DNA of 64,000 nucleotides from Patescibacteria group bacterium (lineage in GTDB: Bacteria; Patescibacteriota; Microgenomatia; JAMCZE01), in assembly GCA_023380635.1 (NCBI GenBank), contig JAMCRP010000002.1, forward strand, positions 42,458 to 106,457, in the 5' to 3' direction. Numbering within the stretch: position 1 is the first letter of the stretch; each line of letters opens with the position of its first letter. Shown one piece after another: positions 14,593-35,321 of the stretch. Made by a program: the position numbers and the translations under genes. The notes beneath the pieces are model-generated. The model saw only the letters and a list, made by a program, of their open reading frames with translations, made no database searches and was not told the DNA's origin.

Positions 14593-15551
14593 ACTGGCCG
14601 ATAGCCGCGTGGTGGGGGAATGCGGGAAAATTTACCGGAAACTAGATCAAAATGTAGCAAGGGCAAAATTGAAAAAAACGCTTTTTGACCAGAAACCGGT
14701 AATAATTCCCAAAAATCTTCTAAACCCTATAATCTTTTGAAAAATTAAACGCTCTTTTTTGGCTTTTGAAACACCCGGTGGCAGATCTTCCGGCCGGTTT
14801 TGTTTCCTGTCTTTGGCAAAAATCGGAAAACAAAATGAAACAGTGGCAGGGAAGTGTCACAAACATTTAAGAACTGGCGAGAGTCAAGGCCGGTAAAGTA
14901 ACCTTCAAAGACAAAATGTCGAAATCCCTACATTGCCGTCGGTAATGACGGCTTTTCGAAATTAATTTCTCTCTTGCCGAGCCGAAGTTTCGAACGACGG
15001 CCGGCGGGCCACGGTTTTAGACTTCCAATAATTTGGAACCAAGCTTTAAAGCAAGGGGAAGACCTTATAGGACTATCGGTCTATTGTACAGGCGAAATAG
15101 AATTGTCTGTTTGGTGGCTAAAAAACTGCCGGAAAAGGGTTCCAGGTTAAAAGCGGTGACCAAAAAACAACTGAGATAGCCTTAAGATACTCTGATGCAC
15201 TACCATATATTAATATGTGGTCTGTTGCTTTGTCATCCGGCTTAAGGAATTTTTAACTCCAAACTCCAAAAAGACCTGGAACATGATATTTGAAATTTCC
15301 GATTTCCAGGGAATATGGGAGTTCTTTAATTTTTCACGGCTTTTCAGGACCAAGGTTTTTTGCCCGGAAACCCGGGAAAATTTTTCACTGAAGTCAATTG
15401 CTTCTTGACAGTAATCATTATTGTATGACTATACTTAATTAGGTCCCCGGAAGTCCCGGGAAGTCATCGAAAAGCTTGGCCTGAGAAGCTAAAAGCCATA
15501 AACGACGAAAAATTAATCTCTGTCTCAGAACTGATCGTTAAAGCCCGGTTA

Positions 15552-18500
15552 ATGGGTTTTGATTTTGGTTTCGGCAAGCCGGAACATGTTCTTCAATATT
15601 TTGGCAAGCTCGGTCTAATTCCCAAAACTGTCCGGATGCGCGTCGAGGGGATTAAGGGCCACACTGTCGGCTGCTACCCGGTCAGCACTCTGGACACCTT
15701 ACTGAAAATTCAAAAACTACGCCGCGAAGGGCGGTCTATGGCCCAGGTTCGAACCGAGATCACCGGAGAGCCGAATCCGCCAACTTTTGATCAGGAACAG
15801 CTTCAGTTGCCAAGCACGGAACTTGTCAGACGAGCTCAAGCCGCCGGTTTTGATTTTGGTCCGGGTAAGCCGGTTCATGTTCTCCAGTATTACAGCAAGC
15901 TTGGTCTCTTACCTAAAACGGTCAGACTCCGTCTAAACGGTATCAAAGGACATACAGTAGGCTGCTATCCGGCGGAAGCAGTAGAGACCCTGCTAAAAAT
16001 CCAGAAACTGCGCCGGGAAGGAGTGGCGGTTAAGGATATCGCCCAAACGCTGGGCAACGAAGGGATTAAGCCGGCAGCCCGGCGGGAGGAAGCCGAAACT
16101 TTGGAAATTCTCCGGGTCGCGGCCCAAGCCCCGGTCCGCTATCAAGCCGAAACCGAAGCCGGCAGGCTGGCCGGATATTTCCAACCCCCACCGCCAGAGA
16201 GACAAGAAACAAGATACAAGATACAAGAAACAAAGAAAACACAAGATGCAAAAGAAACAAAAGAGAAGAGAAGCTGGAAAAGCTTTGCTTACACTCTTCC
16301 GGCAGTTTTAGCTACTATCCTTCTGCTGTTAACTACCGGCCTGAATATATATATTACTTCCTATCAGAAGAAAGTGGCTTCTGACCGGAATTTGCAGGCG
16401 GTCTTGGCCGAAAGCAGCAGCCAAAACTTTTTAGACATCCGGGCGGATACCGATGTTTCCGGAAGACTGACCGTGTGGGGGAAAGATGTCTTAACAGAAG
16501 CGACTTTAGCTTCTTCTTCCCCCTACCTTAGCAACTTAAACCAAAGCCTCAGCACGACGGCCACTCCTACTTTTGCCAACCTTACCTTAACCGCCGGCAA
16601 GATTGTCCTGGAAGACAAAACGCAAACTTTAAAAAACAAATCGCTTTCGGGATCGGATAACACTTTTTCTAATATTCCCAACTCCGCTTTGGCTAACTCC
16701 AAAGTCACCGTGACGGCCGGCACCAACCTGACCGGGGGCGGGGATGTCGTCTTAGGTGACAGCACCACGATTGGTTTGAAGGACAACATTGCCTTAACGA
16801 CAGCGACTTTTTCTGGTCTACTGGGAGTGGGCGGGGACGCTTCTCTTTCAGCCGGATTGTACTTTTCCCTTGCCAGCCCAGTCATTGCCACGACAGACAT
16901 GCAATCCTTAACCTTAGGTAACAGCAATACCGGCAATATCCAGTTCTTTAACGCCTCAAACTATATTAATTCCGCCGGCAATTTAACTTTAGCTAATTCT
17001 TTGACGGTTAACACCACCACCAACTACACCGGCCTGGTTTTGCCAAACGGGGCCGGAATTAATTATGTCTTAACCACCGATGCTTTAGGCCATTCTTCCT
17101 GGACCAACCCCAACGGCCCGGGGACTTCCTTTAGCGGCTGGACCCTAACCGGCAACACCATTTACCCCAACGAAACCGCTTACGATCTGCTTTTAGGCAG
17201 CAGTAATGTTGTGGATGATGTGGCCAAATTCACCAACCTGGGCAGCACCCTGTTTAAGCCTTCAAATATTGCCAACCTAGCTAGCGGGGGAGATATCGGC
17301 ACGGCCGCAACCACGGTGGACATTTACACCACTTTTAATTTAAACCAGACAACATCCGGGCAAACAATCACTTTGCCCAACCCCACTAACACTACGGCCG
17401 GCCGCTTAGTCTATTTAGCCAACACCGGAACCACGCCTTTTAATTTCTTAAACAGTACGGTTTTAACCGGAACGACCACTCAAGCCATATGGAACGGGAC
17501 GGCCTGGACACTGGCTGGCTCCATGGCTGGTCTTCCGGCCGGAACTGTTGATAATTCAACGATGTATTGGGATAACGCCACTTCCCGGTGGCTGGAAAAC
17601 TCGAAACTTCTTTCCAACCCCTTGGGCACCATGCCGGTGGCTTCCGTAGCCGGAACCACTTCTTTTGCCGGGCTGGTAGTCGACAACACCATTGGGGACC
17701 TGTTTACGGCCAGTTCTTCAGGGAAGTCCCGCTTTACGATCACTCAAAACGGGAATGTCGGCGTGGGGATGGTTACTCCGACCGCTTTGTGGCAGGTTTT
17801 TGGCAATTCGACTGTCCAGGTGGCCAGTGTCTCGGCTTCTACCGGGAACGCGGCTCTTCTGGTTGACAACACCATTGGCGACCTCTTTACCGCGTCTTCT
17901 TCCGGAATGTCCCGGTTTGTGATTACGCAAAGCGGCAATGTCGGCATCGGAACGACGAATCCGGGCAATTTATTAGAAGTTGACGCAAACAGTAGCAATT
18001 ATGGCATAACCGTCAATGCGAATAATAGCGCGTTATCTCAAGCTGGGCTGAGACTTATTGCCGGTAACGGAAGTACTTCCCGGGCTGCTCGTTTGGATTT
18101 TCTTAACGTTCCGGCAAGCACATCCGTGCCACGGTGGACTTTTATTAATGACTATGACCAAAACGGTACAAATGACTTTAGATTTGTGAATAGTGATGGT
18201 TCAACGTCGGTCTTAACTTTATTGCAGGGCGGCAACGTCGGCATCGGGACGACGGGACCGGCGGCAACTTTGCAAGTTAACGCACCATATACTACCGCAG
18301 CACCACTGACGTGGGGCGCAACCGCTGGTCAAATTTTCAGAAATGAAAATTCGGAACTGGCCGTGGGACTGCTCAACAGTTCTCCATACCCGCTGTATTT
18401 ACAAGGTCGTACCAATACCAGTACTGCTCGTGACATTGTCATGAATCCAAGTGGTGGCAGCGTCGGCATCGGGACGACGGGGCCAAATTCGAAACTGACG

Positions 18501-20261
18501 GTAAACAACACAGGTTCTTATACAAATTTATCCTCGGCTTTCTCTGTTTGGGGCGGATCGACTACCTATACTATCGGCTCCTATTCCTATCCTGCCGAGA
18601 TACAGACAACTAGTAATAATCTTGGCCGCCTGCAATTTGCCGGCTACCGGAAATACAACCCGTATTATGACTGGGGAGGAACCGGGTTCAGAATTCAATA
18701 TGCTGTAGATAATTCGTTTACTGACGGTTCTTTGGCTTATCTATATTTAGGCACGGCGAATAATTACGCTGGACAGATATCCTTTGGAGTAGGCGGAGCG
18801 GATCGGGTAACGATAGACAACAGCGGCAATGTTTCTCTCAACACGGGAAATATTAACATGATTTCCGGAAATTCTAATACGACCATTATGGCCGACGGCA
18901 GCAATTATCTTTACCACACTTTTGCGGCAGGTAACGGGACCACGGGCGGTTATTATTTTTGTACCACCAACAATATAAGTCTCTGCCAAACCACTGGAAA
19001 CAACAACCGGGTTGCCTTCATAGATTCAATAGGAGACTTCTTTATCCGGAAAACTCTGACTCAGAATTGGGGCAGCGATTTGGCTGAAGGCGTTAAGGTA
19101 AACGACCCGGTTATTAATGAAGGCGATCTTTTGGTATTGCCGGTTACTCCAGCGAGTCCGGCCGGCCAGTTTGTGGCTACCAGAACGACCCGGGCCTACC
19201 AGGGTAATATCGCGGGCGTGGTTTCAACCAAACCGGGGATATACATGAATTCCCCAATACTGCCGGGCGATAAAGAGCCTAGTATGCCGGATATTCGGCC
19301 CCTGGCGCTATCCGGCCGGGTGCCGGTAAAAGTTTCCACCATAAACGGGCCGGTAACTGCCGGCGATTTGGTCACATCCTCAGAACTTGCCGGGATCGGT
19401 ATGAAAGCCAGCGTTCCCGGAGTGGTTGTGGGAAGAGCCTTACAGAGTCTGGATGTTTCCGCCTGCCAGCCGGTAGCTTCAGCTGCTGACATTGTCTGGC
19501 CTTCCGGAGATGACGGGAGCGATACTTTCAAGCGGCCTTGTTTCGAACTGCCGGACGGAACATATATCGGCAAAGTCATGGTGCTTGTTAACCTTGGTTG
19601 GCAGGATCCAACAAACGCTCAGCAAACGGAAATTGCTTCCCAGTCAGTTGATATTGCCACCATATCCGCGACTTTAGCTTCCTGGAATGATCTTTTGGGC
19701 ACCCCGTCAGCAACTTTGGCGGATTCGGTGGCCCACCTGGACGGTTTATCCCAGGATATTTCCTCTCTTATGGCCGATAACCTCCAGATTAAGTCCGATA
19801 TCCAGCTTCTTAAAGACCAGATGGCTTCGGTTTCGGCTAATCTTGCCCAGGTCCAAAGCCAAACGGCGTCTAATTCTGCCCAGTTGGCTTTGGGGTTAGG
19901 GGGTAACTTAACCATTACTTCGGATTTGGAAGTCTCGACTGTCAGTGCTTCCTTTGCCAACTTTTCTGATACCTTAAAAGTGGTCGGCAAGACCGAACTA
20001 GCTGAGACCAACATTGGAGGGAGTTTGACTGTCGGGCTATTAAGGTTTGACGATTTGAAAGCGGAGATCTCTTCCTTAACCGGAACGGTCACCGTTAACA
20101 GTAATTTGCAGGTGGCCGGAGATGCCACCGTGTCGGGAACGCTGCAGTCGGATAAGGTTAAAACTGGGGGGATTACCATCAAAGATAAGGTGACCGGCGA
20201 GCCATACTGCGTTACCGTCGAAAACGGAGTATTATTGAATACTAAAGGAGAATGTCAGTAA
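15552..20261 (+). CDS. giant membrane-anchored fibre-like protein (1569 aa): tandem divergent MerR-type HTH modules, single TM helix, large extracellular region with tail-fibre-like repeats
   Basis: The N-terminus has two copies of GFDFG-x-GKP-x-HVLQY(Y/F)-x-KLGL(L/I)PKTVR-x-R-x-GIKGHTVGCYP ... LLKIQKLRREG, matching MerR TLRYYE-GLL ... recognition-helix/wing layout. Then KKRSWKS, a TM helix (FAYTLPAVLATILLLLTTGLNIYITSY), and a S/T/N/G-rich region with four GNVGIGTT(N/G)P motifs. The N-terminal (~180 aa) and C-terminal (~210 aa) modules are shared with the 4697-aa paralogue. The first HTH helix appears to be encoded upstream of this ATG (see findings). Confidence 0.8.
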   Translation: MGFDFGFGKPEHVLQYFGKLGLIPKTVRMRVEGIKGHTVGCYPVSTLDTLLKIQKLRREGRSMAQVRTEITGEPNPPTFDQEQLQLPSTELVRRAQAAGFDFGPGKPVHVLQYYSKLGLLPKTVRLRLNGIKGHTVGCYPAEAVETLLKIQKLRREGVAVKDIAQTLGNEGIKPAARREEAETLEILRVAAQAPVRYQAETEAGRLAGYFQPPPPERQETRYKIQETKKTQDAKETKEKRSWKSFAYTLPAVLATILLLLTTGLNIYITSYQKKVASDRNLQAVLAESSSQNFLDIRADTDVSGRLTVWGKDVLTEATLASSSPYLSNLNQSLSTTATPTFANLTLTAGKIVLEDKTQTLKNKSLSGSDNTFSNIPNSALANSKVTVTAGTNLTGGGDVVLGDSTTIGLKDNIALTTATFSGLLGVGGDASLSAGLYFSLASPVIATTDMQSLTLGNSNTGNIQFFNASNYINSAGNLTLANSLTVNTTTNYTGLVLPNGAGINYVLTTDALGHSSWTNPNGPGTSFSGWTLTGNTIYPNETAYDLLLGSSNVVDDVAKFTNLGSTLFKPSNIANLASGGDIGTAATTVDIYTTFNLNQTTSGQTITLPNPTNTTAGRLVYLANTGTTPFNFLNSTVLTGTTTQAIWNGTAWTLAGSMAGLPAGTVDNSTMYWDNATSRWLENSKLLSNPLGTMPVASVAGTTSFAGLVVDNTIGDLFTASSSGKSRFTITQNGNVGVGMVTPTALWQVFGNSTVQVASVSASTGNAALLVDNTIGDLFTASSSGMSRFVITQSGNVGIGTTNPGNLLEVDANSSNYGITVNANNSALSQAGLRLIAGNGSTSRAARLDFLNVPASTSVPRWTFINDYDQNGTNDFRFVNSDGSTSVLTLLQGGNVGIGTTGPAATLQVNAPYTTAAPLTWGATAGQIFRNENSELAVGLLNSSPYPLYLQGRTNTSTARDIVMNPSGGSVGIGTTGPNSKLTVNNTGSYTNLSSAFSVWGGSTTYTIGSYSYPAEIQTTSNNLGRLQFAGYRKYNPYYDWGGTGFRIQYAVDNSFTDGSLAYLYLGTANNYAGQISFGVGGADRVTIDNSGNVSLNTGNINMISGNSNTTIMADGSNYLYHTFAAGNGTTGGYYFCTTNNISLCQTTGNNNRVAFIDSIGDFFIRKTLTQNWGSDLAEGVKVNDPVINEGDLLVLPVTPASPAGQFVATRTTRAYQGNIAGVVSTKPGIYMNSPILPGDKEPSMPDIRPLALSGRVPVKVSTINGPVTAGDLVTSSELAGIGMKASVPGVVVGRALQSLDVSACQPVASAADIVWPSGDDGSDTFKRPCFELPDGTYIGKVMVLVNLGWQDPTNAQQTEIASQSVDIATISATLASWNDLLGTPSATLADSVAHLDGLSQDISSLMADNLQIKSDIQLLKDQMASVSANLAQVQSQTASNSAQLALGLGGNLTITSDLEVSTVSASFANFSDTLKVVGKTELAETNIGGSLTVGLLRFDDLKAEISSLTGTVTVNSNLQVAGDATVSGTLQSDKVKTGGITIKDKVTGEPYCVTVENGVLLNTKGECQ
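16270..16790. repeat. 521-bp block 100% identical to 21964..22484 (shared TM plus proximal ectodomain module of the two giant genes)
   Basis: Direct base-by-base comparison of the two regions (constant offset 5694) shows no mismatch from gaagctggaaaag to ggacaacatt. Confidence 0.9.
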
Positions 20262-21097: not shown

Positions 21098-21227
21098 AAG
21101 TAAAAAGCCTCAGTTTTTTTGGATAGAGCTTTAATGCTTGATGCCTTTGGTTTAGCACTCAAAAAGTGAGAGTGATAGATGGTGTTTTCAGGCTCGAAAA
21201 AATCTATACATTCACCTCATTTTCCCC

Positions 21228-30200: not shown

Positions 30201-33200
30201 TTTAAGATTGCCTCCTGGTTCGTCGAAAAACCTTCCGCCACCAGAGGCTCAAAACAGCAATTCCCAGAGAGAAGTTATGTCGTTGCTACCGCCGCCTCAG
30301 TAGACATTATTGACGCCGATACCAACAAGTTATGGATGAGATTTACTGGGGCAGACGGCAATATTATCCATTTCCCAACAGGATTTACATATAATGTCCC
30401 ATCTGTCACAGCGCTTAACGGAACTTTGTATGCAGGCATACAACGGACGAATGGAGCTTGGGGTAACTTAACTAGTGTCTACTTCTCACGGGATTCTTCT
30501 TCTGGAATAACTAGCGGCAGTACTTTCCCCTATCCTGGCGTGATTTCTCAGAGAAACAGCGCACTCGGATATCCGCTAGCCTTGAGCACTGTAACCATAG
30601 CCAACAGTTACGTTAACGATGTCTCCGCCGCGGTCATTCCCAACCAGCCGACCCAGACGGTAACTGTGAGCGGGTGGGGGTATATCCAAGGAAACGGGTC
30701 CACGCCTTATGTATCCGAAACAGTCAATTTCCCTTATAAATTCAACAATCTTCCCGTTGTAAATATTAATTTTTCCGGAGGCACCAGCACTACCGCTCCG
30801 ACAAAATTATCGGATTGTGCTGCAAACTGGCGAGTCGAAGCACATGCTGAAAGTATAGGAAATAATAGCTTTACGGCTAAGACAGCACTCACGGAAACCG
30901 GCGACGGCAATACCAGCGCTACCGGTTATTACTGTTACACCTGGACCGCGACAGGGCAAGTTTCGCCGAGACAATATGTAGGGGTAGCAACTAACGGCGG
31001 AGCGACTTTAATTAACGAGACGGACCAAAGTGCGGTTAATTACGGCGACACGGCTCAGTTTAGCCGGATCGCCTTAACCTCCAAGAGCCATATGTATATT
31101 GCCAGAGATAGTAATGTGGGAGAAATAAGAGTCTTTAATAATGCCGCCGGATTGGGGGCTGGTTTTAGCTCAGATATGCTGCTTTTTCCCACAAGTAGTT
31201 GCACAAACCAGCCTTGTTATTTGGCTGAAGCCGCCGGCGGTAATGGTCATGGTCCAACCAGCTTGTTTGTTACTGACGGAACTTCAACGGTAAATGGGAG
31301 TGCCGATACAGTTTATGTCGGTACTGCTGTTGGACTCTCGGTATTTCAATTAAATAATACGAACGCTAATTTAGGTGACGGCCAGGGGGAAATCCAAAGT
31401 TCTTCAGTAAAATATTACACCAAAGACTACATTTCCGAAGAAATGGTCGGGGACATTCGGGGCATGTGGCCGTTTAATGGCAGCGGGGCCATAACTCAAA
31501 ACAGCACAACCTTTACTGATGCCTCAGTAAAGGCCGATCCTTTGGTTTCTAAAGGCACCGGGGCGGCATACGCCAGCGGTGTTCGGGGGACTGGTGTTTC
31601 GCTTAACGGCACTAATGATTATTTCTGCCCGAATGGAGGCAGCGGATCGACCTGTACGGATGTTTCTTCTTTAAAGATTACCGGAAACAGCATATCCGTC
31701 GGAGCCTGGATGAAATCCTCGGCAACTTGCTCTGTCTTTCAGGATGTCATAAGCAAGGAAGATAATACTACTGGAAATTCCTGGCGGATTACAATGGACA
31801 GTGGTAACCACGCAAGATTTGATACTACCTTTGCGCCGGTATATGGTGTGGCCGCAACGGGAACAACAAATATTTGTGACGGCAAGTGGCATTACCTTGT
31901 GGGAGTCTATAACAATGGTGACACACAAAAAATCTATGTTGACGGCAGACTGGAAGGGACCGGGGCCGCACAATCAGCGACAGTCAGAGATGTGACGGCT
32001 CCGGTAGCAGTTGGTGCTGAATTTAATAACGGTACGCCAGGGAATTATTTTAAGGGGACAATCGACGAACCGTTTGTGACAGCCACGACTCTTTCGGCCA
32101 ACCAGATTAAGCATATGTATGAAGTCGGCGCCCGGGCGCTTCAGAGCCATTCCGCCTCTTTAGGCGGCGGGGCGGCGGACAAAAACCAGCAACTGGCCGG
32201 AGCTGCCGGTAACCCCACAAATTTAGTCAAAGCAGTAGGGGTGGATTACAACAACCAATACATGTATGTTTCCAACTCCGAAGCCGGGCTTAACCAAAAC
32301 AACGGCGGAGTTTCCAAGATCGATCTTAATTCTGATACCAATGTTTACACTTATAAAAACGGTTCCACCCCGGCCCAGTTGGATAGTGAGATATCCTCTC
32401 TGGCAGTTGGTTACAACCTTGAAGCCATGTCTTCGACAGCTTCCGGCGTCCTCAACCCCGGTATTGACGCTTTTGCCAGTGCTACTTCCGGTTCCTTCTT
32501 CTCAAATACTTATGTTTTACCAAAGCCCATTGCCTCGGCCGTCATCTGGACCAGCGCTTACAAAGACACTGCCGATTCCGGTTCGACGCAGACGATTAAA
32601 GCCAGTGTTGACGGCGGGAGTACATACGCCACCTGTAATTTGCTTAGTACTGACTACAATCCGGCCACCCCTGAACGGGCCTATGGTTGCGAATTTGCCG
32701 CTTCCGGTCAAAACTTGAAAGTCGAGTTTGATTTAGCCCGAACCAGCGTCAAGTCCAACAATTATGTTTCACAATACGGGATTACCTGGCTGGGACAAAA
32801 CGGGTTCAGAGTGGAACAGACCAATAACAACACAGTCAGACTGTATAACTATTCCGGCGAATCGGCTAATGTCCGGTTGGATGTCATTACCGGCGGCCTG
32901 GGGAGAAATGCCGGGACGATTTCTCTGGCCCCCAGCGCGGCAGATGTTGATGCCCAGAATAATTCCAATTCCCTGTGGATAAACAAAACGGGGGCGGGAG
33001 GGAATTTATTAAAACTTCAGGTCAGCGGGGCTGACAAACTCACCTTGGATGCTAACGGCCTGATGACCTTGACTGGGAACTTTGTTCCGGGAGCGGACAA
33101 CACCTATGATTTGGGCGCCTCGTCATCAGCCAGGTTTAGAAACTTGTATCTTGGACCCGGCTCGCTTCATATTCAGTCAAAATCCACAGACACGGGTTAC

Positions 33201-35321
33201 CCGGCGCTGGGGCTGGATTATGCCCTAGGCATTAACCCTGCCGGGAGCTTGGTGACCAGTCTGAACGGGACCTCGAACGCCTTGATGGCTATTACCCAGG
33301 ATGGTAAAGTCGGCATCGGGACAACTGCGCCCACGGCTCTTCTTCAGGTTTTTGGTAACGGCACCACTCAGGTGGCCAGTGTCTCGGCTTCTACCGGGAA
33401 AGCGGCTCTTTTGGTTGACAACACCGTTGGCGACCTCTTTACCGCGTCTTCTTCCGGAATGTCCCGGTTTGTGATTACGCAAAGCGGCAACGTCGGCATC
33501 GGGACAACGGGGCCAGGAGATAAACTCCATGTCGCAGGGGGCAATATTATAATTGAAGGATCTGGAGCTGGTGCAAGTCCTCGTGGTATTAAAACCCGTT
33601 ACACATCAAGTGACTCTTATTCTGGTAGTTTAGGTTGGAATGGTCTACAGCTTGGCAATAATGGACCAAATTATATTGTCGCTGGTAATTCAGCAACAGG
33701 TGGAAGTCTGAATTTCATTGTAAATAATTCTAATAGCTTGGGGACTGGAACAGATTATGGGACTGCTAATGGAACAAATGCAATGACAATATTAAGCAGT
33801 GGTAATGTCGGCATCGGGACAACGGGGCCAAATAAATTACTTGATGTATATAAATCTCAAAGCAGTGTCACCGACGAGTCGCAAGCGGCAGCGGCTTTCG
33901 GTGTCACTACGACGGGAGGTATCTATGGATATATCACTCCTAATCAGACTGGAAAAACAGTCACATTCGCTGGAGTTCGAGGCGGTCAGGCTAACGACGT
34001 ATCGCTGCTCTTTAACCCAGCTGGCGGCAACGTCGGCATCGGGACGACGGGACCTTTGGGCAAGTTAGATGTCGGCAACCAAATGTATGTTCAGTCAAAC
34101 GGAACCATCGAGAGTCCAGGCAGCAAGAACACGACTAACGGAATGATTGAAACATACTATAATGCTGGTGACAGATATGGTTTAGGTCAACTTTCCAATG
34201 GAGTAACAGCTTTGTACACATCCGATGCTTACAGCCCCAGCTCAATACAGTTTGGAAGAATAGACAGCAGCAACAATTTCATCTCTCTGATGGATATTAC
34301 CCATGGTGGCAATGTCGGCATCGGGACGACGAGTCCGGGCTATCTTTTAACCGTTAACTCCAGCACCCCAGGCTGCAACGGGTGTACCGCCTGGACAAAC
34401 TACTCTGATATCCGCCTAAAGGAAAACATTGCTTCCGTCTCCGGGGGAATTTTAGACAAAATTTTGCAACTAAACCCGGTGACTTTTAACTACAACGACA
34501 CCTACTATACCCAAACGGGTTATTCCCGCCCTGATGGCCAAACACCAACTTACACTGGCTTTATTGCCCAGCAGTTGCAAACGATTTTTCCGGAAATGGT
34601 TTCCACCTCCAGTAATGGTTATCTTGACACCAACCTTTCCAACTTGCAGATCTATCTGGTTAAAGGTATGCAGGAACAACAGGGAGAAATTGCTTCCCAG
34701 TCAGCCCAAATTGCCACCATGTCGGCCACACTTTCGGCCTGGAACGACCTTCTGGGGACCCCCTCAGCCTCTTTAGCCGAGTCTGTCGCCCGCCTAGACG
34801 GGTTATCAGCCGATATTTCCTCTTTAATGGCCGATAACCTCCAGATTAAATCCGATATCCAGCTTCTTAAAGAGCAAATGGCCACAGTTTCGGCTAACTT
34901 GGCTCAGGTTTCTTCCCAAACCGCTTCCAATTCCGCTTCTCTGGCTTCCTTAAGTCCCTTAAGTAACTTAAGCATCTTAAGTGATCTGGAAGTCTCGACG
35001 GTTTCGGCTTCCTTTGCCAACTTTTCTGACACTCTCAAGGTCGTGGGCAAGACCCAGCTGGCTGATACTAACATCGGGGGCAGCTTGACCGTGGGGTTGC
35101 TGCACTTTGACGATTTGAAAGCGGAGATATCCAGCTTAACCGGCACGGTTACCATTAACAGCAATTTGCAGGTGGCCGGAGACGCCACGGTGTCGGGAAC
35201 GCTCAAAACCGCCACGGCAGAAACTGACGGAATCAGTCTTAAAGATGAGGTGACGGGGGATTACTATTGTATTCGGATGCACAGTGGCGAGATTGCCAAA
35301 ACCCCCGGGAAATGCCAGTAG
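21228..35321 (+). CDS. giant membrane-anchored fibre-like protein (4697 aa): 2x MerR-type HTH, single TM, tail-fibre-like repeats, 2x ConA/LamG-like lectin domains, C-terminal peptidase-S74 intramolecular-chaperone domain
   Basis: Two N-terminal copies of LLKIGDAAKFLNVSIQTLRRWDESGKLKPVVTPGGTRFYEKQAL (MerR/HTH_17 pattern IGExAKxxGVSxxTLRxYExxGLLxPxRxxxGYRxY). TM helix identical to giant gene 1. Seven GNVGIGTT(S/G)P-type motifs. LamG/ConA-like jelly-roll domains at ~28.12-28.73 kb and ~31.46-32.15 kb (AWSFGAWFKTT...NWHFGVVTYDG...KIYADGQL). S74 domain at ~34.40-34.69 kb (SDIRLKENI...LNPVTFNYN...TGFIAQQLQTIFPEMV...YLDTNLSNLQIYLVKGMQEQQ). The start is ambiguous: TTG at 21228 or GTG at 21267. Confidence 0.85.
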   Translation: MTNLFKSPHTDYAVKKSTDAGLLKIGDAAKFLNVSIQTLRRWDESGKLKPVVTPGGTRFYEKQALKNIRVGNGVRETDGTGEMKSEQQVTKKTGKFSKRGLVKIGTAAKLLGISIPTLRRWDEMGKLRAVVSPGGTRLYSKDSLAAINPALSEYKILKSEEPEIKPAKQFIKEVVSEVLHQQKAVLQLPPPVNPIQTISEWSQEPVHYRAETEAGRIAGYFQKPPPEDTRNKIQETRETPNTRKKRSWKSFAYTLPAVLATILLLLTTGLNIYITSYQKKVASDRNLQAVLAESSSQNFLDIRADTDVSGRLTVWGKDVLTEATLASSSPYLSNLNQSLSTTATPTFANLTLTAGKIVLEDKTQTLKNKSLSGSDNTFSNIPNSALANSKVTVTAGTNLTGGGDVVLGDSTTIGLKDNISVTSVTSSALTVNGDAAITGNLNVGGGLQFSSLAVTGTSGTAPVASISGKTSFAAVVVDNSGSGDLFTASTAGQPRFTVNSNGDLLPGITSHQSIGSPTQVWDTIYANNLSGTNWSGNIIGTQYGGTGQDWHLTAQGNVPYFSASGTMNTLAPGTNHQVFVTQGVGANPKWEDLVNLLTPGTDITLGGTNVVTINDASTLQSVTGRGAATTNPITLNLTGGNAYFGSGNASALVDLSSTSKGFLTPRMTQAQRDAISTPAPGLLIYNTDTNQFNVYNSSTWGAIAGAGAAYWGDNIGALYPLYLNSDLLIGSDATASALIRLEGTTGYITANRINGNKIATGSGNVAVSATLPLAVDTNGNMTLAYTSNLKVTSSQLDTAQNIGPSASPQFVSLTLGSGTTGTLQTAALTGSRTWTLPDNTGEICTTYGNCIGGVGGSVGGSGTNTKIAMFTPDGTHIGDSHITDTGTQIQFFNTSNYIDSSGNFYLNGSLFASGNEAGFWQRQSGVLAPKNITDSLIIGGNATGSGQLQVYGLNSQMPVASISAQTPWAALVVDNATGDLFTASSSGMTRFTVGNTGNLTAGTYNTATITGGSLSATAVNGVATANILTTGTTFAGDVGGSYNNLAIGTGKVTNPMLSGPVDTTHGGTGNDWHLTAQGNVPYFSAAGTMGLLAPGTASQVLTTGGGGADPAWTNMASLVTGAGNITVTGTQTLSINTVNNPTFSTSVTTPLLTNSGNLLINPTGNVGIGTTSPAALLSVGTNSDLRVNGTGDIVARTYNGNIIATGSGTLTLGSASLNIGTGGTLNTGAYADISLYAPLASPTFTGTVTIPTSFVLGATTVTTTGTQLNYLNAATGTTGNTNSNLVFSNGPTLTSPAFSTIVNVGTLTLPTTSDTLVGRATTDTFTNKTFDTAGTGNILRINGTQVSAVTGTGSVVLASAPTISNPIITNINPGADFTLTQNSVTPFISYNSGALANTLVLSAGSVGIGVTNPGAKLDVAGAASISGILTLNNGVTTQINATNDRSLDLGFANTGRVNFLTTSSYIDANGNFSTNGQIQVGSFASAPTALGAGSMYYNSTENRLYAYNGTNWSPLGEQSTVVVTNNSGTTLNPKDLVIFDSSANNAVTTTTTAYKKGVVYGVVVDASCASGATNCKVQISGKVDVSVTNSNAAKGDYVFTSTTAAKGVTSAKLFDGLIGIVTDNTNAGSGYVTIIFQPQAQVLAGVVMDKISRHNDYKIYSNIYTPINEGSVFSPNLTARGISFDNFLDQTKVDAALTTVGSTMSAQIQSPTAQTSAPFRMGLTGGQTYNTTNTDNAGNAYLGSNTVNKVFYYDRTRDSIPQVQVELGIDPNWYNGVTLSVASTSAQFSQADTITKPNPNLSTAYNGSLVKVSGTYPTQAATRTIYLTITSPTQFTWSDGAVGANNVSINPGVSQALGTTGVSVTFTNVKYNPGDVFRIASWVVEPASSTRGSKAQFPERSYVIGTASSVDIIDADTNKLWMRFTINATSWAVTTMLIDASSSVTALNGTIYSSQGASGLLKIVFDRDTGFGFTTDWTNYGGTFRGGIAQRNTQNGYAQNVPLNIVNNTVNDISAAVIPNQPTQTVTTSGWGYMYLNAAGSNYEVVNLPYKFNDIPKVVISASAERATAPTNYGDCSWGISTNFVANTYSATTSNFGATIATPGSGTTTGYICYTWTATGVVSPRQYVAVGTNQGVTVINETDQSGVNYSTVSSGDHNVGSVFLTSNDNLYFSYPWSYPTDVKVAVQYGVAGVTSNVAWDSWSGNYASIGNSWSNKGPTPLQSSTNYQIFVTSGTSTIDGKSNTIYVSGSNGLTVIQEKQAGRFGTAESYVPSDENNGSVKYYTKDYISEEMVGDIRGMWPLNGTLSDASVKGNTLTDGGIAFGTGVRGQGAVISGLSFLYCTDASCGGTSKLDSGGTAWSFGAWFKTTSTGGTIISKYNGGVSGAYFLAVDGSGKLSGDIEQSPYTFTGNKIVNDGNWHFGVVTYDGVSAKIYADGQLDSLVAMTGNIPDTTANFAIGARYTGGSVSNILLGSIDEPFVSATALTANQIKHMYEVGARALQSHSASLGGGAADANQKLGTNVASVSAAAVDYNNQFMYVGANDSTNGGVSKIDLNSDTNIRTIQTANTPVGGTVLPAKTVSSLAAGYNLEVVGTGTGAIGMAPDDNANNLSGTLYSKTLTTPESFSQAYIWSQQVTDAADAANTVTVWASNDGGSNYYQCNQTNTDSTQTPTEYEYFCQFNAVGSSLKIKEVFARGSTKTNTYVTRYGVAWIDSSNAIGSNPLGNGMYTNNATVADSSYLEVAHNQNTADAVANAWISSESKWKQLDATYKPVAAYDGLSGVLSEYHDLAANYKTGDLVSTPSGILFDTFKDITKTASAASTLSLDFGKNRVGLMGGQTFNTTNTDSDGNALLGSNTVNKVFYYDRINKDSSPQVQVELGVDPNWYNGVTLSVATTSAQMSQSETTVPAGKNPNLSTTYNGSLVKVTGTYATTAAARPIWITISDNSSFVWTDYNGNGGTASLQQGVTQALGSTGVSVTFTGTKYNIGDVFKIASWFVEKPSATRGSKQQFPERSYVVATAASVDIIDADTNKLWMRFTGADGNIIHFPTGFTYNVPSVTALNGTLYAGIQRTNGAWGNLTSVYFSRDSSSGITSGSTFPYPGVISQRNSALGYPLALSTVTIANSYVNDVSAAVIPNQPTQTVTVSGWGYIQGNGSTPYVSETVNFPYKFNNLPVVNINFSGGTSTTAPTKLSDCAANWRVEAHAESIGNNSFTAKTALTETGDGNTSATGYYCYTWTATGQVSPRQYVGVATNGGATLINETDQSAVNYGDTAQFSRIALTSKSHMYIARDSNVGEIRVFNNAAGLGAGFSSDMLLFPTSSCTNQPCYLAEAAGGNGHGPTSLFVTDGTSTVNGSADTVYVGTAVGLSVFQLNNTNANLGDGQGEIQSSSVKYYTKDYISEEMVGDIRGMWPFNGSGAITQNSTTFTDASVKADPLVSKGTGAAYASGVRGTGVSLNGTNDYFCPNGGSGSTCTDVSSLKITGNSISVGAWMKSSATCSVFQDVISKEDNTTGNSWRITMDSGNHARFDTTFAPVYGVAATGTTNICDGKWHYLVGVYNNGDTQKIYVDGRLEGTGAAQSATVRDVTAPVAVGAEFNNGTPGNYFKGTIDEPFVTATTLSANQIKHMYEVGARALQSHSASLGGGAADKNQQLAGAAGNPTNLVKAVGVDYNNQYMYVSNSEAGLNQNNGGVSKIDLNSDTNVYTYKNGSTPAQLDSEISSLAVGYNLEAMSSTASGVLNPGIDAFASATSGSFFSNTYVLPKPIASAVIWTSAYKDTADSGSTQTIKASVDGGSTYATCNLLSTDYNPATPERAYGCEFAASGQNLKVEFDLARTSVKSNNYVSQYGITWLGQNGFRVEQTNNNTVRLYNYSGESANVRLDVITGGLGRNAGTISLAPSAADVDAQNNSNSLWINKTGAGGNLLKLQVSGADKLTLDANGLMTLTGNFVPGADNTYDLGASSSARFRNLYLGPGSLHIQSKSTDTGYPALGLDYALGINPAGSLVTSLNGTSNALMAITQDGKVGIGTTAPTALLQVFGNGTTQVASVSASTGKAALLVDNTVGDLFTASSSGMSRFVITQSGNVGIGTTGPGDKLHVAGGNIIIEGSGAGASPRGIKTRYTSSDSYSGSLGWNGLQLGNNGPNYIVAGNSATGGSLNFIVNNSNSLGTGTDYGTANGTNAMTILSSGNVGIGTTGPNKLLDVYKSQSSVTDESQAAAAFGVTTTGGIYGYITPNQTGKTVTFAGVRGGQANDVSLLFNPAGGNVGIGTTGPLGKLDVGNQMYVQSNGTIESPGSKNTTNGMIETYYNAGDRYGLGQLSNGVTALYTSDAYSPSSIQFGRIDSSNNFISLMDITHGGNVGIGTTSPGYLLTVNSSTPGCNGCTAWTNYSDIRLKENIASVSGGILDKILQLNPVTFNYNDTYYTQTGYSRPDGQTPTYTGFIAQQLQTIFPEMVSTSSNGYLDTNLSNLQIYLVKGMQEQQGEIASQSAQIATMSATLSAWNDLLGTPSASLAESVARLDGLSADISSLMADNLQIKSDIQLLKEQMATVSANLAQVSSQTASNSASLASLSPLSNLSILSDLEVSTVSASFANFSDTLKVVGKTQLADTNIGGSLTVGLLHFDDLKAEISSLTGTVTINSNLQVAGDATVSGTLKTATAETDGISLKDEVTGDYYCIRMHSGEIAKTPGKCQ
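26270..32790. repeat. diverged internal tandem duplication (~3.1-3.4 kb unit x2) within giant gene 2
   Basis: Copy A ~26270-29390 and copy B ~29640-32790 are collinear at protein level (G(I/L)(S/L)FD-x-F-x-D-x-TK ... NTVNKVFYYDR ... QVQVELG(I/V)DPNWYNGVTLSVA ... SSVKYYTKDYISEEMVGDIRGMWP ... HMYEVGARALQSHSASLGGGAAD ... VDYNNQ-x-MYV ... GGVSKIDLNSDTN). There is a 56-nt exact DNA match at 28075-28130 versus 31417-31472. Confidence 0.85.
34938..34985. repeat. in-frame tandem 9-bp 'nnnCTTAAG' array inside giant gene 2
   Basis: tcccttaag taacttaag catcttaag tgatctgga encoding SLSPLSNLSILSDLE; the same unit family as the intergenic arrays at 9.7, 10.4, 11.1 and 38.8 kb. Confidence 0.7.

What the first reader, a model, noticed from the sequence alone, without database searches (positions are those of the whole stretch)
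15429..35321. Two giant type-II membrane proteins fuse cytoplasmic tandem MerR-type HTH DNA-binding domains to multi-kilo-residue tail-fibre-like ectodomains
Both giant ORFs (1569 and 4697 aa) begin with two tandem MerR-superfamily HTH modules. In the 4697-aa gene the module is LLKIGDAAKFLNVSIQTLRRWDESGKLKPVVTPGGTRFYEKQAL; the 1569-aa gene has the divergent GFDFG-x-GKP-x-HVLQYY-x-KLGLLPKTVR ... GHTVGCYP ... LLKIQKLRREG type. A basic stretch (KKRSWKS) follows, then one TM helix, then everything else (tail-fibre-like GNVGIGTT repeats, lectin folds, an S74 chaperone domain) is predicted outside the cell. A tandem HTH pair could act as an intramolecular dimer on a palindromic operator. Fusing a cytoplasmic DNA-binding domain to a 1300- or 4400-residue extracellular fibre through a single TM is a ToxR/CadC-like topology at a scale I have not seen described. 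It suggests surface-contact-coupled transcriptional signalling or membrane tethering of DNA in an organism that probably lives attached to a host (inference).
Basis: partly seen in the sequence, partly recalled or inferred. Interest (0 to 1): 0.9.

Follow-up and report, generated by a model that had tools for sequence, protein, structure and literature searches.

The report
Membrane fibres with cytoplasmic DNA-binding tails
Two giant surface-fibre genes of an ultra-small (CPR/Patescibacteria) bacterium really do carry DNA-binding modules on the cytoplasmic side of a single membrane anchor, and a conserved repeat array in their own promoter suggests that the fibre controls its own gene from the membrane.

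Summary
Both ORFs exist (1569 and 4697 aa). Each begins with two MerR-superfamily winged-HTH modules, followed by a disordered linker, one TM helix and a tail-fibre-like ectodomain. The large gene has an intact S74 Ser-Lys self-cleavage site.

The fusion is neither an artefact nor a prophage gene. I found 98 relatives with 1, 2 or 8 HTH modules, one TM and ectodomains up to 5400 aa. They sit at a syntenic chromosomal locus (LeuRS/ArgRS/ComEC/sortase/PEGA/MreB/WecG) in deeply diverged Microgenomates-type genomes.

The HTH modules are the minimal BldC/Xis/IS607-TnpA type. They have no dimerisation helix and are modelled as independent beads, not a pseudo-dimer.

The new result is a conserved promoter upstream of the large gene and its orthologues: TTGACA-[AATCTATGC AAATCTATG]-TAnnnT. 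It carries 2-6 copies of a 10-bp repeat, and the motif fits BldC's AATTxxxxC site. A DNA-first metagenome scan with this motif returned HTH-TM-giant genes.

My best reading is a trimeric adhesin-like fibre that acts as a membrane-tethered autoregulator. Contact sensing is untested.

This is a new variant of the known class of transmembrane transcription regulators.

The parts
15363..15462 (+). Promoter region of the small giant gene. It reads TTGACA (15405-15410), a 19-bp spacer, then TATACT (15430-15435). Tandem CCSGGAA pairs flank it at 15363-15378 and 15445-15462. There are no AAATCT repeats.
   Evidence: Read directly from the sequence. The paired CCSGGAA pattern occurs 3 times in the window against 0.17 expected, and two of those are here. 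This is a weak lead from one genome only. The upstream pair also forms a terminator-like hairpin.
15498..20261 (+). Small giant gene. It is called as 15552..20261 (1569 aa). The frame is open from 15429, and the probable start is the ATA codon at 15498.
   Evidence: The N-terminus of P0163 (MDQEKLISVKEV...) aligns with the upstream in-frame peptide.
15504..15761 (+). Small gene, divergent MerR_1-type HTH module 1 (GFDFG..GKP..HVLQYF..KGHTVGCYP..LLKIQKLRREG).
   Evidence: Pfam MerR_1, 43.4 bits in 2 stretches. The internal repeat matches at E = 1.5e-31.
15810..16055 (+). Small gene, divergent MerR_1-type HTH module 2.
   Evidence: Pfam MerR_1, residues 107-167.
16284..16364 (+). Small gene, single TM helix (FAYTLPAVLATILLLLTTGLNIYITSY), preceded by KEKRSWKS.
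   Evidence: Hydropathy scan. The segment is identical to the TM of the large gene.
16398..16481 (+). Small gene, conserved extracellular 'neck' motif (AVLAESSSQNFLDIRADTDVSGRLTVWG).
   Evidence: The family motif VLA[AE][ST]..FLEINADT.I.G.L was found in 41 of 98 relatives, at a median of 36 aa after the TM.
16124..16790 (+). Gene-conversion tract shared with the large gene (matches 21833-22484). It is 93% identical in DNA over 667 nt and covers the end of the linker, the TM, the neck and the first fibre repeats.
   Evidence: blastn; the repeat finder D1.
20303..21097 (+). WecG/TagA-family glycosyltransferase gene between the two giant genes. It is a syntenic neighbour in related genomes.
   Evidence: Pfam PF03808, 109 bits. 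Synteny in L001, L007 and L011.
21199..21257 (+). Promoter and candidate operator of the large gene. An upstream copy AAATCTATAC lies at 21199-21208. The -35 TTGACA is at 21228-21233. Direct repeats AAATCTGTTC and AAATCTCCGC (21233-21252) fill the 18-bp spacer. The -10 CATACT is at 21252-21257.
   Evidence: This is the only hit of AAATCT-N4-AAATCT in the 64-kb window. The same architecture occurs upstream of orthologues. The reciprocal metagenome scan supports the link.
21267..35321 (+). Large giant gene. The ORF is listed from TTG 21228 (4697 aa). The likely start is GTG 21267 (4684 aa).
21291..21422 (+). Large gene, HTH module 1 (LLKIGDAAKFLNVSIQTLRRWDESGKLKPVVTPGGTRFYEKQAL), of the BldC/Xis/HTH_17 type.
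   Evidence: Pfam MerR, MerR_1 and HTH_17. AF2 pLDDT ~95. Foldseek match to BldC 6amk at rmsd 1.1 A and TM 0.79.
21528..21659 (+). Large gene, HTH module 2 (LVKIGTAAKLLGISIPTLRRWDEMGKLRAVVSPGGTRLYSKDSL).
21978..22058 (+). Large gene, single TM helix, preceded by RKKRSWKS.
   Evidence: Hydropathy scan. AF2 models a helix with pLDDT ~91.
22092..22175 (+). Large gene, conserved extracellular neck motif.
26391..32270 (+). Internal duplication of about 3.4 kb in the ectodomain (aa ~1722-2540 and ~2834-3681). Each copy ends in a Laminin_G_3/ConA-like lectin domain.
   Evidence: the repeat finder D10-D16 at 75-95% identity. Pfam Laminin_G_3, 110 bits in 2 stretches.
34404..34601 (+). Peptidase_S74 intramolecular-chaperone domain with the SDIRLK Ser-Lys autoproteolysis dyad (S4393, K4398).
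   Evidence: Pfam PF13884, 54 bits. The motif is present and is shared with P0014, P0042, P0051, P0091 and P0143.
34683..35318 (+). C-terminal coiled-coil plus beta module. It is 77% identical to the C-terminus of the small gene (19626-20258).

Best explanation
Both genes encode phage-tail-fibre-like surface fibres of a Microgenomates-type CPR bacterium. The fibres are probably trimeric. Each chain is anchored N-in/C-out by one TM helix. On the cytoplasmic side it carries two minimal MerR-type winged-HTH modules (BldC/Xis/IS607-TnpA type, with no dimerisation helix) on a long disordered tether.

For the 4697-aa gene and its orthologues, I propose that these modules bind head-to-tail to the 10-bp-period AAATCT(ATGC) repeats. 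Those repeats fill the 18-bp -35/-10 spacer of the gene's own promoter and extend into the leader. The fibre would then be a membrane-tethered autoregulator. A trimer displays 3-6 HTH modules, which matches the 2-6 operator copies. The most likely outcome is repression of further synthesis once enough fibres are inserted, and the locus would be held at the membrane as a side effect.

The 1569-aa paralogue shares the same anchor but has a different HTH type and a different promoter spacer, so it presumably reads a different site.

Shown: the architecture, the fold, family-level topology bias, synteny, and the link between the motif and genes of this HTH class.

Inferred: DNA binding by these modules, the sign of regulation, and trimerisation.
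For: - Architecture.
- Recurrence: 98 relatives combine HTH, one TM and a long C-terminal part, with copy numbers 1 (61 proteins), 2 (36) and 7-8 (1).
- Topology: flanking K+R is 2.89 vs 2.04 (Wilcoxon p = 2e-7). Pre-TM K+R is 16.4% against 3.9% post-TM.
- Fold: AF2 with an alignment gives two modules at pLDDT ~95, disordered linkers and a TM helix. The best PDB matches are BldC-DNA 6amk/6ama (TM 0.79, rmsd 1.1 A), RacA-DNA and Xis.
- Chromosomal origin: synteny with LeuRS, ArgRS, ComEC, sortase, PEGA, MreB and WecG in genomes whose LeuRS is only ~40% identical.
- Operator in the window: TTGACA-AATCT-N4-AAATCT-..-TAnnnT occurs once in the 64-kb window, at this gene.
- Operator position across loci: 33 of 61 motif sites in 1.2 Mb of loci lie in the 2.1% of sequence just upstream of genes of this HTH class (p = 5e-39).
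- De novo check: 8-mer enrichment gives AATCTATG in 12 of 16 upstream regions against 11 of 1008 background windows.
- Full pattern: 12 of 14 hits directly precede an HTH ORF.
- Reciprocal test: an exact-pattern scan of metagenomes returned 16 HTH-TM genes, several of them giant and cut by contig ends. With the consensus N4, 10 of 12 sites were followed by such a gene.
- Fit to BldC: BldC binds AATTxxxx(C) direct repeats head-to-tail and its Arg30 reads the G (PMC5859096). The R of TLRRW aligns with that Arg.
- Related precedent: IS607 TnpA, which has a related N-terminal HTH, coats multiple subterminal repeats (PMC6188088).
- S74 Ser-Lys dyad.
Against: - No binding experiment exists. The motif could be bound by another protein of the same HTH class, because 16 of 67 non-fibre HTH_17 genes also carry it upstream.
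- The window's own repeats (AAATCTGTTC, AAATCTCCGC) match only the AAATCT core of the consensus.
- 6 of the 15 giant-type loci counted show no site at <=1 mismatch. L001 carries the motif only in reverse orientation upstream of the -35, and L002 lacks it. Both of these have TLRNW instead of TLRRW.
- The sign of regulation is unknown.
- Trimerisation is inferred only from the S74 domain, and the small gene has no S74 domain.
- The evidence for an operator at the small gene is weak.
- Topology rests on the positive-inside rule and composition, not on a dedicated predictor or an experiment.
Confidence: 0.55

Rival explanations
1. Contact- or damage-coupled signalling of the ToxR/CadC or Notch/MYRF type. 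The state of the giant ectodomain (host binding, tension, shedding) changes what the cytoplasmic HTH modules do. This could work through regulated proteolysis that frees or destroys the tail, and the HTH modules would control a wider regulon than the fibre gene itself. This extends the best explanation and does not exclude it.
For: - The one-polypeptide layout of DNA-binding domain, TM and ectodomain defines transmembrane transcription regulators (PMC10269533).
- MYRF shows that a DNA-binding domain and an S74 domain can cooperate in a type-II membrane protein (PMC3742443).
- Motif sites also occur upstream of other genes of the same HTH class.
- CPR genomes are small and the lifestyle is thought to be host-attached (established knowledge).
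Against: - The S74 domain lies about 4100 residues beyond the TM, on the outside, so its self-cleavage cannot release the HTH tail.
- No sensor domain, protease site or partner gene was identified.
- In the 64-kb window the motif occurs only at the fibre gene's own promoter.
- A single TM helix joined to disordered linkers is a poor conduit for conformational signals.
Confidence: 0.2
2. A structural tether. The HTH tails mainly fasten the fibre base to the nucleoid, or fasten the chromosome to the attachment site, as RacA does in Bacillus sporulation. Alternatively they act as a folded cytoplasmic stopper that resists pulling. Transcription would not be the point.
For: - RacA-DNA is among the closest folds.
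- Copy number varies from 1 to 8, and trimerisation gives avidity.
- The recognition helix is nearly invariant across deep divergence.
- The nearest relatives (Xis, IS607 TnpA, BldC) are architectural, filament-forming DNA binders.
Against: - The conserved sites sit exactly in the -35/-10 spacer of the gene's own promoter, with a fixed 18-bp spacing. That is a regulatory position, not a centromere-like one.
- Only one site cluster was found in 64 kb.
Confidence: 0.15
3. The HTH modules no longer bind DNA. They would serve as a protein-interaction, folding or targeting handle for assembly or secretion of the giant fibre.
For: - The small gene's modules are highly divergent, and its first module lacks a canonical start codon.
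- AF2 models the modules as isolated beads.
Against: - Key DNA-contact features are conserved: invariant T, R and W of TLRRW and the wing GG.R.
- The Arg30 equivalent is retained.
- A co-conserved repeat array lies in the promoter.
Confidence: 0.07
4. Artefact or phage gene. The fusion would come from mis-assembly, a read-through ORF call, or a prophage tail-fibre gene lying next to an excisionase.
For: - PHROG hits to tail-fibre and excisionase families.
- The ectodomain is repetitive.
Against: - The same fusion occurs in 98 independent proteins from many samples.
- Orthologues sit at a syntenic housekeeping locus.
- No phage genes lie nearby.
- The viral-contig scan found HTH-only hits.
- The internal repeats are 75-78% identical, too diverged to cause assembly collapse.
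Confidence: 0.02

Closest known systems
BldC (Streptomyces), founding member of the minimal MerR-like wHTH family; PDB 6amk and 6ama
   Same: - It is the best structural match (TM 0.79, rmsd 1.1 A, 33% identity).
- It has no coiled-coil or effector domain.
- It binds direct repeats head-to-tail as multimers of variable length, with a per-protomer site AATTxxxx(C) that resembles AAATCTATGC (PMC5859096).
   Different: BldC is a free 68-aa cytoplasmic protein. Here the module is duplicated in cis, up to 8 times in P0015, and is covalently tied through a TM helix to an extracellular fibre of 1300-5000 aa.
Transmembrane transcription regulators (ToxR, TcpP, CadC; survey in PMC10269533)
   Same: - One polypeptide carries a cytoplasmic DNA-binding domain, a single TM and an extracytoplasmic part.
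- The DNA-binding domain has to reach DNA while membrane-bound.
- The survey lists MerR (386), MerR_1 (350) and HTH_17 (151) examples.
   Different: - ToxR-like proteins use an OmpR-type wHTH and a small periplasmic sensor domain.
- The survey shows no S74 domain or fibre ectodomain and no Patescibacteria.
- The ectodomain here is a giant structural fibre, 10-40 times larger.
MYRF / Ndt80-type membrane-bound transcription factor with an S74 (ICA) domain (PMC3742443)
   Same: It is a type-II membrane protein that combines an N-terminal DNA-binding domain with the phage tailspike intramolecular-chaperone (S74) domain, which drives trimerisation and self-cleavage.
   Different: - In MYRF the S74 domain lies between the DNA-binding domain and the TM on the cytoplasmic side, so cleavage frees the factor.
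- Here it lies about 4100 residues after the TM on the outside, so cleavage can only trim the fibre tip.
- The DNA-binding domain is Ndt80-type in MYRF and MerR-type here.
Phage tail fibres and tailspikes with a C-terminal S74 intramolecular chaperone (endosialidase type)
   Same: - S74 domain with a Ser-Lys dyad (SDIRLK).
- GNVGIGTT-type fibre repeats and lectin-like domains.
- Mosaic module exchange.
   Different: - These genes are chromosomal and syntenic with housekeeping genes.
- The fibre is anchored to a cell membrane by an N-terminal TM instead of to a virion baseplate.
- It carries a cytoplasmic DNA-binding tail.
RacA (Bacillus subtilis) and IS607-family TnpA N-terminal domains
   Same: - They are MerR-like wHTH modules used as architectural, multi-site DNA binders.
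- RacA anchors the chromosome to the cell pole (PDB 5i44).
- TnpA coats subterminal repeats (PMC6188088). IS607 transposases are among the nearest sequence relatives of this HTH.
   Different: - RacA reaches the membrane through DivIVA, has no TM helix, and binds GC-rich inverted repeats.
- TnpA is a soluble recombinase.

Membership tests
MerR superfamily HTH (Pfam MerR PF00376, MerR_1 PF13411, HTH_17 PF12728) | HMM match above the curated gathering score | tested here: met
   Large gene: MerR 89.5 bits (cutoff 28.2), MerR_1 60.4 and HTH_17 53.8, two stretches each. Small gene: MerR_1 43.4 bits (cutoff 21.6), two stretches.
MerR superfamily HTH (Pfam MerR PF00376, MerR_1 PF13411, HTH_17 PF12728) | Winged helix-turn-helix fold | tested here: met
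   AF2 with an alignment gives a strand-helix-helix-hairpin-helix pattern at pLDDT ~95 for both modules of the large gene. Foldseek hits BldC, MtaN, BmrR, CarH, RacA and Xis. The small gene's modules were not modelled.
Classical MerR-family regulators (MerR, CueR, BmrR) | A C-terminal antiparallel coiled-coil dimerisation helix and an effector-binding domain after the wHTH | tested here: not met
   After each HTH the model is disordered (pLDDT ~50) until the TM helix. No Pfam effector domain was found, and pTM is 0.33 with no inter-module packing.
Classical MerR-family regulators (MerR, CueR, BmrR) | A palindromic operator inside an over-long (19-20 bp) -35/-10 spacer | tested here: not met
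   For the large gene the motif does lie inside the spacer, but it is a direct repeat and the spacer is 18 bp. The small gene has a 19-bp spacer with no clear dyad.
BldC family (minimal MerR-like wHTH) | A wHTH alone that oligomerises head-to-tail on direct repeats of the type AATTxxxx(C) | tested here: inconclusive
   The fold match and the Arg30 equivalent are met. Direct repeats AAATCTATGC with a 10-bp period are present at the promoter. Binding itself cannot be tested here.
BldC family (minimal MerR-like wHTH) | A small free-standing cytoplasmic protein of about 60-70 aa | tested here: not met
   The modules are fused in tandem to a TM helix and a giant ectodomain.
Transmembrane transcription regulators (one-component, membrane-bound) | A DNA-binding domain and at least one TM region in one polypeptide, with the DNA-binding domain cytoplasmic | tested here: met
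   The HTH modules precede a single TM. Positive-inside and composition statistics across 98 relatives favour N-in. There is no experimental topology.
Transmembrane transcription regulators (one-component, membrane-bound) | Regulates target promoters while membrane-anchored | not testable with these tools
   There is only indirect support, from the conserved operator-like array in the gene's own promoter.
ToxR/CadC-like receptor family | An OmpR-type (Trans_reg_C) wHTH and a periplasmic sensor domain | tested here: not met
   There is no Trans_reg_C hit. The DNA-binding domain is MerR-type and the ectodomain is a fibre with lectin and S74 domains.
MYRF-type self-cleaving membrane-bound transcription factors | An S74/ICA domain between the DNA-binding domain and the TM, so that autoproteolysis releases the DNA-binding domain | tested here: not met
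   The S74 domain is at aa 4393-4458 and the TM at aa 251-277, so the S74 domain is extracellular and C-terminal.
Phage tail fibre or tailspike with an S74 intramolecular chaperone | An S74 domain with a catalytic Ser-Lys dyad (S-x4-K) | tested here: met
   SDIRLK at aa 4393-4398 of the large gene. The same motif occurs in P0014, P0042, P0051, P0091 and P0143. It is absent from the small gene.
Phage tail fibre or tailspike with an S74 intramolecular chaperone | Encoded in a phage or prophage structural module | tested here: not met
   The neighbours are LeuRS, ArgRS, ComEC, NDK, sortase, PEGA, MreB and WecG. This synteny is conserved in distant genomes. The viral-contig scan found no such fusion.

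The most novel reading that the evidence does not exclude
In Microgenomates-type CPR bacteria, the giant surface fibre serves as adhesin, sensor and transcription factor in one molecule. A trimeric, membrane-tethered BldC-like array sits on the promoter of its own gene. That would couple fibre number or integrity, and possibly host contact or mechanical load, directly to transcription. It would also pin the 14-kb gene to the membrane so that new fibres are translated and inserted next to old ones. This would be a minimal, Notch/MYRF-like but non-proteolytic signalling device in organisms that have very few classical signalling systems.
Probability: 0.2. Interest if true: 0.9.

Novelty: new variant of a known kind. 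Interest (0 to 1): 0.72.

Why it matters
CPR/Patescibacteria make up a large share of bacterial diversity. They are thought to live attached to hosts, and almost nothing is known about how they sense or regulate attachment.

This locus gives a conserved, lineage-wide candidate. It is a surface fibre whose cytoplasmic tail is a DNA-binding array, and a specific, testable operator (AAATCTATGC repeats in a TTGACA-N18-TAnnnT promoter) can be synthesised and assayed in vitro today, without culturing the organism.

It extends the class of transmembrane transcription regulators to giant, probably trimeric structural proteins. It adds a covalently tandem, membrane-tethered version of the BldC way of binding DNA. 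It also offers a bacterial counterpart to MYRF's pairing of a DNA-binding domain with a phage S74 domain.

In practice, such genes are currently annotated either as 'MerR family transcriptional regulator' or as 'tail fiber domain-containing protein'. Each label misses half of the protein.

Tried and rejected
- Single-sequence AF2 of the N-terminus gave pLDDT 47, with only the TM helix confident. I replaced it with a run on an alignment.
- The flanking AATTTSAAATT arrays are not the operator. There are 15 copies in the window against 0.12 expected, but they lie in many unrelated intergenic spacers, and the motif also occurs in L005.
- My first operator pattern used an N5 spacer and gave 0 hits, because I had miscounted. 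N4 is correct.
- The look-up of encoding contigs found nothing on record for P0014.
- Searches for the small gene's HTH type found only P0163 and P0014. A metagenome scan found none. Its start codon and operator therefore could not be tested by comparison.
- The window's own genome is not in the GTDB representative set. Alignment A1 was too diverse for the search for related loci.
- The 1-kb gap upstream of the small gene has no Rfam hit, no remnant of the GT4 gene that occupies this position in L001, and no similarity to other loci apart from the heptad motif.
- No LPXTG or other C-terminal sortase signal is visible in either giant protein, although a sortase gene lies next door (read).
- Literature searches for a prior description of MerR-TM-fibre proteins in CPR found none in the held library. 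Subscription journals are not covered.
- The prophage and mis-assembly readings are rejected.
Full report
**1. What is in the window**

The region holds two long ORFs on the + strand. One is 15552..20261 (1569 aa, ATG) and the other is 21228..35321 (4697 aa, TTG). A WecG/TagA glycosyltransferase gene (20303..21097) lies between them.

Pfam places two MerR-superfamily HTH modules at the N-terminus of each protein.
- Large gene: MerR PF00376 at 89.5 bits, MerR_1 at 60.4 and HTH_17 at 53.8, two stretches each.
- Small gene: MerR_1 at 43.4 bits, two stretches. All of these are above the curated cutoffs.

Each protein has exactly one strongly hydrophobic segment, FAYTLPAVLATILLLLTTGLNIYITSY, preceded by (K)KRSWKS.

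The rest of each protein is rich in S, T, N and G and poor in charged residues. The large gene has GNVGIGTT-type repeats, two Laminin_G_3 lectin-like domains inside a 3.4-kb internal duplication, PHROG tail-fibre hits, and a Peptidase_S74 domain at aa 4393-4458. The S74 catalytic Ser-x4-Lys dyad is intact (SDIRLK).

**2. Corrections to the gene models**

Position 15429 is only the first codon after a TGA. No ATG, GTG or TTG lies in frame before 15552. Even so, the upstream in-frame peptide (..NDEKLISVSELIVKARL-MGFDFG) is clearly helix 1 of the first module. It matches the second module of the same protein and the N-terminus of the only close relative of this HTH type, P0163 (MDQEKLISVKEVIKKARARGFDFG). 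The codon at the position of P0163's Met is ATA (15498). So either a non-canonical start is used or module 1 is truncated.

For the large gene, the 'TTG' at 21228 is the TTG of a conserved TTGACA -35 box (see section 6). The likely start is GTG 21267, which gives MKKSTDAGLLKIGD.., a typical N-terminus for this family.

The two genes share a 667-nt tract at 93% DNA identity that covers the end of the linker, the TM, the neck and the first fibre repeats. Their C-terminal ~210 aa are 77% identical. The relative P0014 (MCL4398029.1, Patescibacteria) is a mosaic: its N-terminus is like the small gene and its C-terminus is like the large gene. These are modular, recombining genes.

**3. The fusion is real, recurrent and chromosomal**

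An exhaustive HMMER search with residues 1-330 of the large protein found 1241 hits. I pooled its best 150 with the proteins returned by the homologue searches, 262 sequences in all. Of these, 98 have the same layout: 1 HTH (61 proteins), 2 HTH (36) or 7-8 HTH (P0015), then a linker of 11-284 aa (median 65), one TM, and at least 60 further residues. Twenty-three of them exceed 1000 aa, and the longest are 5421 and 5310 aa.

Many share an extracellular 'neck' motif, VLA[AE][ST]..FLEINADT.I.G.L, at a median of 36 aa after the TM.

Source names place them in Patescibacteria, Ca. Daviesbacteria and the Microgenomates group.

Gene neighbourhoods are conserved.
- In a 1.10-Mb Daviesbacteria contig the order is WecG, MreB, GT4, giant gene, PEGA, sortase, NDK .. 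ArgRS, ComEC.
- In another 1.18-Mb contig it is LeuRS, giant gene .. ComEA, ComEC, ArgRS.
- Six further genomes have LeuRS divergently upstream of the giant gene.

The window has the same set: ComEC 4706.., ArgRS, M16, NDK, sortase 11180.., PEGA, MreB, small giant gene, WecG, large giant gene.

LeuRS is only about 40% identical between these genomes, so the locus is old and vertically inherited. There are no phage genes nearby, and a viral-contig scan found only HTH-only proteins. The prophage and mis-assembly readings are rejected.

**4. Topology**

There is no N-terminal signal peptide, and about 250 folded or charged residues precede the only TM. Across the 98 relatives, K+R in the 15 residues flanking the TM averages 2.89 on the N side and 2.04 on the C side (Wilcoxon p = 2e-7). 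Pooled K+R is 16.4% before the TM and 3.9% after it. Together with the extracellular character of S74 and lectin domains, this supports an N-in/C-out (type II) topology. It is an inference from sequence, not an experiment.

**5. What kind of HTH**

With a 54-sequence alignment, AF2 models two confident modules (pLDDT ~95, strand-helix-helix-hairpin-helix). They are separated and followed by disordered linkers (pLDDT ~50), and then comes a confident TM helix. pTM is 0.33, so there is no fixed packing between the two modules.

Foldseek's best PDB matches are BldC-DNA complexes (6amk and 6ama; TM 0.79, rmsd 1.1 A over 45 residues, 33% identity). RacA-DNA, mycobacteriophage Xis and the DNA-binding domains of MtaN, BmrR and CarH follow. 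The Foldseek E-values are only about 1e-3, because a 45-residue domain sits inside a 278-residue query. Sequence search of the PDB agrees. IS607 transposase N-terminal domains are among the nearest sequence relatives.

So these are the minimal MerR-like modules that lack the coiled-coil and the effector domain of classical MerR regulators. The idea of an intramolecular dimer on a palindrome is not supported.

**6. A conserved promoter and operator array (new result)**

While comparing upstream regions, I found that the large gene's promoter is TTGACA (21228), then AATCTGTTCAAATCTCCG (18 bp), then CATACT (21252-21257). The spacer is filled by two direct AAATCT repeats with a 10-bp period, and a third copy (AAATCTATAC) lies at 21199. 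The pattern AAATCT-N4-AAATCT (<=1 mismatch) occurs once in the 64-kb window, at this spot.

The same architecture, with consensus TTGACA-AATCTATGC-AAATCTATG-TAnnnT, precedes orthologous giant genes in L004, L005, L007, L009-L012, L014-L016 and L023. It always has an 18-bp spacer, and usually 1-4 further copies of AAATCTATGC in either orientation extend to about +60.

Statistics:
- 33 of 61 sites in 1.2 Mb of fetched loci fall in the 2.1% of sequence within 300 bp upstream of genes of this HTH class (binomial p = 5e-39).
- An unbiased 8-mer screen of 16 upstream regions ranks TTGACAAA (14 of 16) and AATCTATG (12 of 16, against 11 of 1008 background windows) at the top.
- 12 of 14 hits of the full pattern directly precede an ORF that starts with the HTH.
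- In a DNA-first test, an exact scan of metagenome contigs for TTGACAAATCT-N4-AAATCT returned 120 sites. In a collection of that size I expect most of them to be chance matches, a rough estimate that I did not compute. Sixteen were followed by a KIG.A.K.LGVSIDTLRRWE.. ORF, almost all with a TM. Several were giant ORFs cut by the contig end (at least 4249, 2363 and 2270 aa). With the consensus spacer (ATGC or ATGT) the figure was 10 of 12.

Non-coding sequence conserved at this evolutionary depth implies a bound factor. The only feature common to the downstream genes is the HTH itself, since 16 of 67 non-fibre HTH_17 genes also carry the motif.

The motif also fits what is known for the closest fold. 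BldC protomers each read AATTxxxx(C) and stack head-to-tail on variable numbers of direct repeats, and Arg30 contacts the G (PMC5859096). AAATCTATGC has the same AT-tract, 4-bp gap and G:C layout, and the second R of TLRRW aligns with Arg30. IS607 TnpA likewise coats several subterminal repeats (PMC6188088).

The two orthologues with TLRNW instead of TLRRW (L001, L002) lack the spacer repeats. L001 has reverse-oriented copies further upstream.

The small gene has a different HTH type and a different promoter: TTGACA, a 19-bp spacer, then TATACT, flanked by tandem CCSGGAA pairs. That is what autoregulation by a different specificity would predict, but the evidence comes from one genome and is weak.

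**7. Most likely mechanism**

Shown:
- the domain order;
- the fold;
- recurrence and synteny;
- the family-level topology bias;
- the intact S74 dyad;
- the association between the promoter array and HTH genes.

Inferred:
- The S74 domain drives trimerisation, as it does in endosialidase tailspikes and in MYRF (PMC3742443). The mature fibre would then be a trimer held by three TM helices, with 3-6 HTH modules on flexible tethers in the cytoplasm.
- These modules occupy the 2-6 repeat copies at the gene's own promoter.
- Because the sites fill the spacer and run into the leader, the simplest outcome is negative autoregulation. That would act as a fibre-count homeostat and would incidentally tether the locus to the membrane.

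I put 0.55 on 'membrane-tethered autoregulator'. Within that, the sign of regulation is open.

Rivals are given with their tests in the structured fields:
- contact- or damage-coupled signalling to a wider regulon (0.2, not exclusive);
- a purely structural nucleoid tether or stopper (0.15);
- modules that do not bind DNA (0.07);
- an artefact or phage gene (0.02).

**8. Comparison with what is known**

Transmembrane transcription regulators are known to be widespread. A 2023 survey lists 50,302 of them, 56% single-pass, including 386 with MerR, 350 with MerR_1 and 151 with HTH_17 domains. It shows no S74 co-occurrence and no Patescibacteria (PMC10269533).

MYRF pairs a DNA-binding domain with an S74 domain in a type-II membrane protein. 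There the S74 domain lies on the cytoplasmic side, so cleavage frees the factor. Here it lies about 4100 residues beyond the TM on the outside.

The proteins here fail the defining features of classical MerR regulators, of ToxR/CadC, of MYRF and of phage-borne fibres. They combine features of each, and their DNA-binding module most resembles BldC.

NCBI annotates one orthologue as 'MerR family DNA-binding transcriptional regulator' and another relative as 'tail fiber domain-containing protein'. I found no paper describing the architecture or the operator in the held library, and that library lacks most subscription journals.

**9. Verdict**

- Observation: confirmed.
- Novelty: new variant of a known kind.
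- Interest: 0.72. The architecture is conserved across a CPR lineage and unusually large, and a concrete operator prediction can be tested in vitro without culturing the organism.

Noticed in passing
window 13236-13341, 14572-14589, 20269-20293, 35322-35339, 35766-35797, 38257-38314, 54121-54211; also L005 8927-9050: The palindromic 11-mer AATTTSAAATT, often as tandem 7-bp units (AAATTTG/C), occurs 15 times against 0.12 expected. All copies lie in intergenic spacers, usually just after stop codons or between divergent genes. It is a lineage-wide intergenic element, possibly terminator- or promoter-associated, and is not specific to the giant genes.
   Followed up: partly
window 36858-37088 (+): A stand-alone 76-codon ORF encodes an HTH_17/MerR-like module (..LLTVKEVAQLLRVSVLTIKRWGKRGKLPAIRINSRGDRRY..). 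It is related to the large gene's HTH (E = 4e-7) but has a different recognition helix and no AAATCT repeats upstream.
   Followed up: partly
window 14482-15551: A 1.07-kb stretch between MreB and the small giant gene has no convincing ORF, no Rfam match, and no similarity to the GT4 gene that fills this position in the Daviesbacteria relative.
   Followed up: partly
window 15363-15378 and 15445-15462: Tandem CCSGGAA pairs flank the small gene's TTGACA-N19-TATACT promoter. The paired pattern occurs 3 times in the window against 0.17 expected. They could be the operator for the divergent HTH type. The upstream pair also forms a terminator-like hairpin.
   Followed up: partly
window 26391-28847 vs 29727-32270: The large gene contains a 3.4-kb internal duplication at 75-78% identity. 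One 77-nt stretch (28062 and 31404) is kept at 95% identity and encodes SVKYYTKDYISEEMVGDIRGMWP. This hints at a conserved functional segment or at local gene conversion.
   Followed up: no
window 16134-16199 and 21843-21908: Both paralogues share a cytoplasmic juxtamembrane motif, V.Y.AETEAGR.AGYFQ.PPPE, followed by a K/E/T/Q-rich low-complexity run encoded by AGATACAAGAAAC-type repeats (16198-16271, 21908-21956). Its function is unknown and I did not see it in more distant relatives.
   Followed up: no
P0015 (623 aa, NCBI, 5-kb contig): This relative has eight tandem HTH modules, four alternating A-B pairs, before the single TM. It is the extreme case of copy-number expansion of the cytoplasmic DNA-binding array.
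   Followed up: partly
window 10455-11027, 35368-35733, 37211-37813: Three genes for '23S rRNA intervening sequence protein' (four-helix-bundle) family members lie within 27 kb, two of them just downstream of the large giant gene.
   Followed up: no
L005, L006, L010, L011, L014-L016, L023, L080 (GTDB genome contigs): Several MAGs titled 'uncultured Gammaproteobacteria bacterium' carry the HTH-TM-giant gene. L010, L015, L016, L023 and L080 also have the CPR-type LeuRS synteny, and L011 has WecG upstream. The record titles are probably wrong about taxonomy.
   Followed up: partly
window 11180-13185 and L001, L007: A sortase gene and a PEGA-domain gene are conserved neighbours of the giant gene, yet neither giant protein ends in an LPXTG-type sorting signal. 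The sortase substrate is unidentified. ComEC, and in L002 also ComEA, are syntenic as well.
   Followed up: partly
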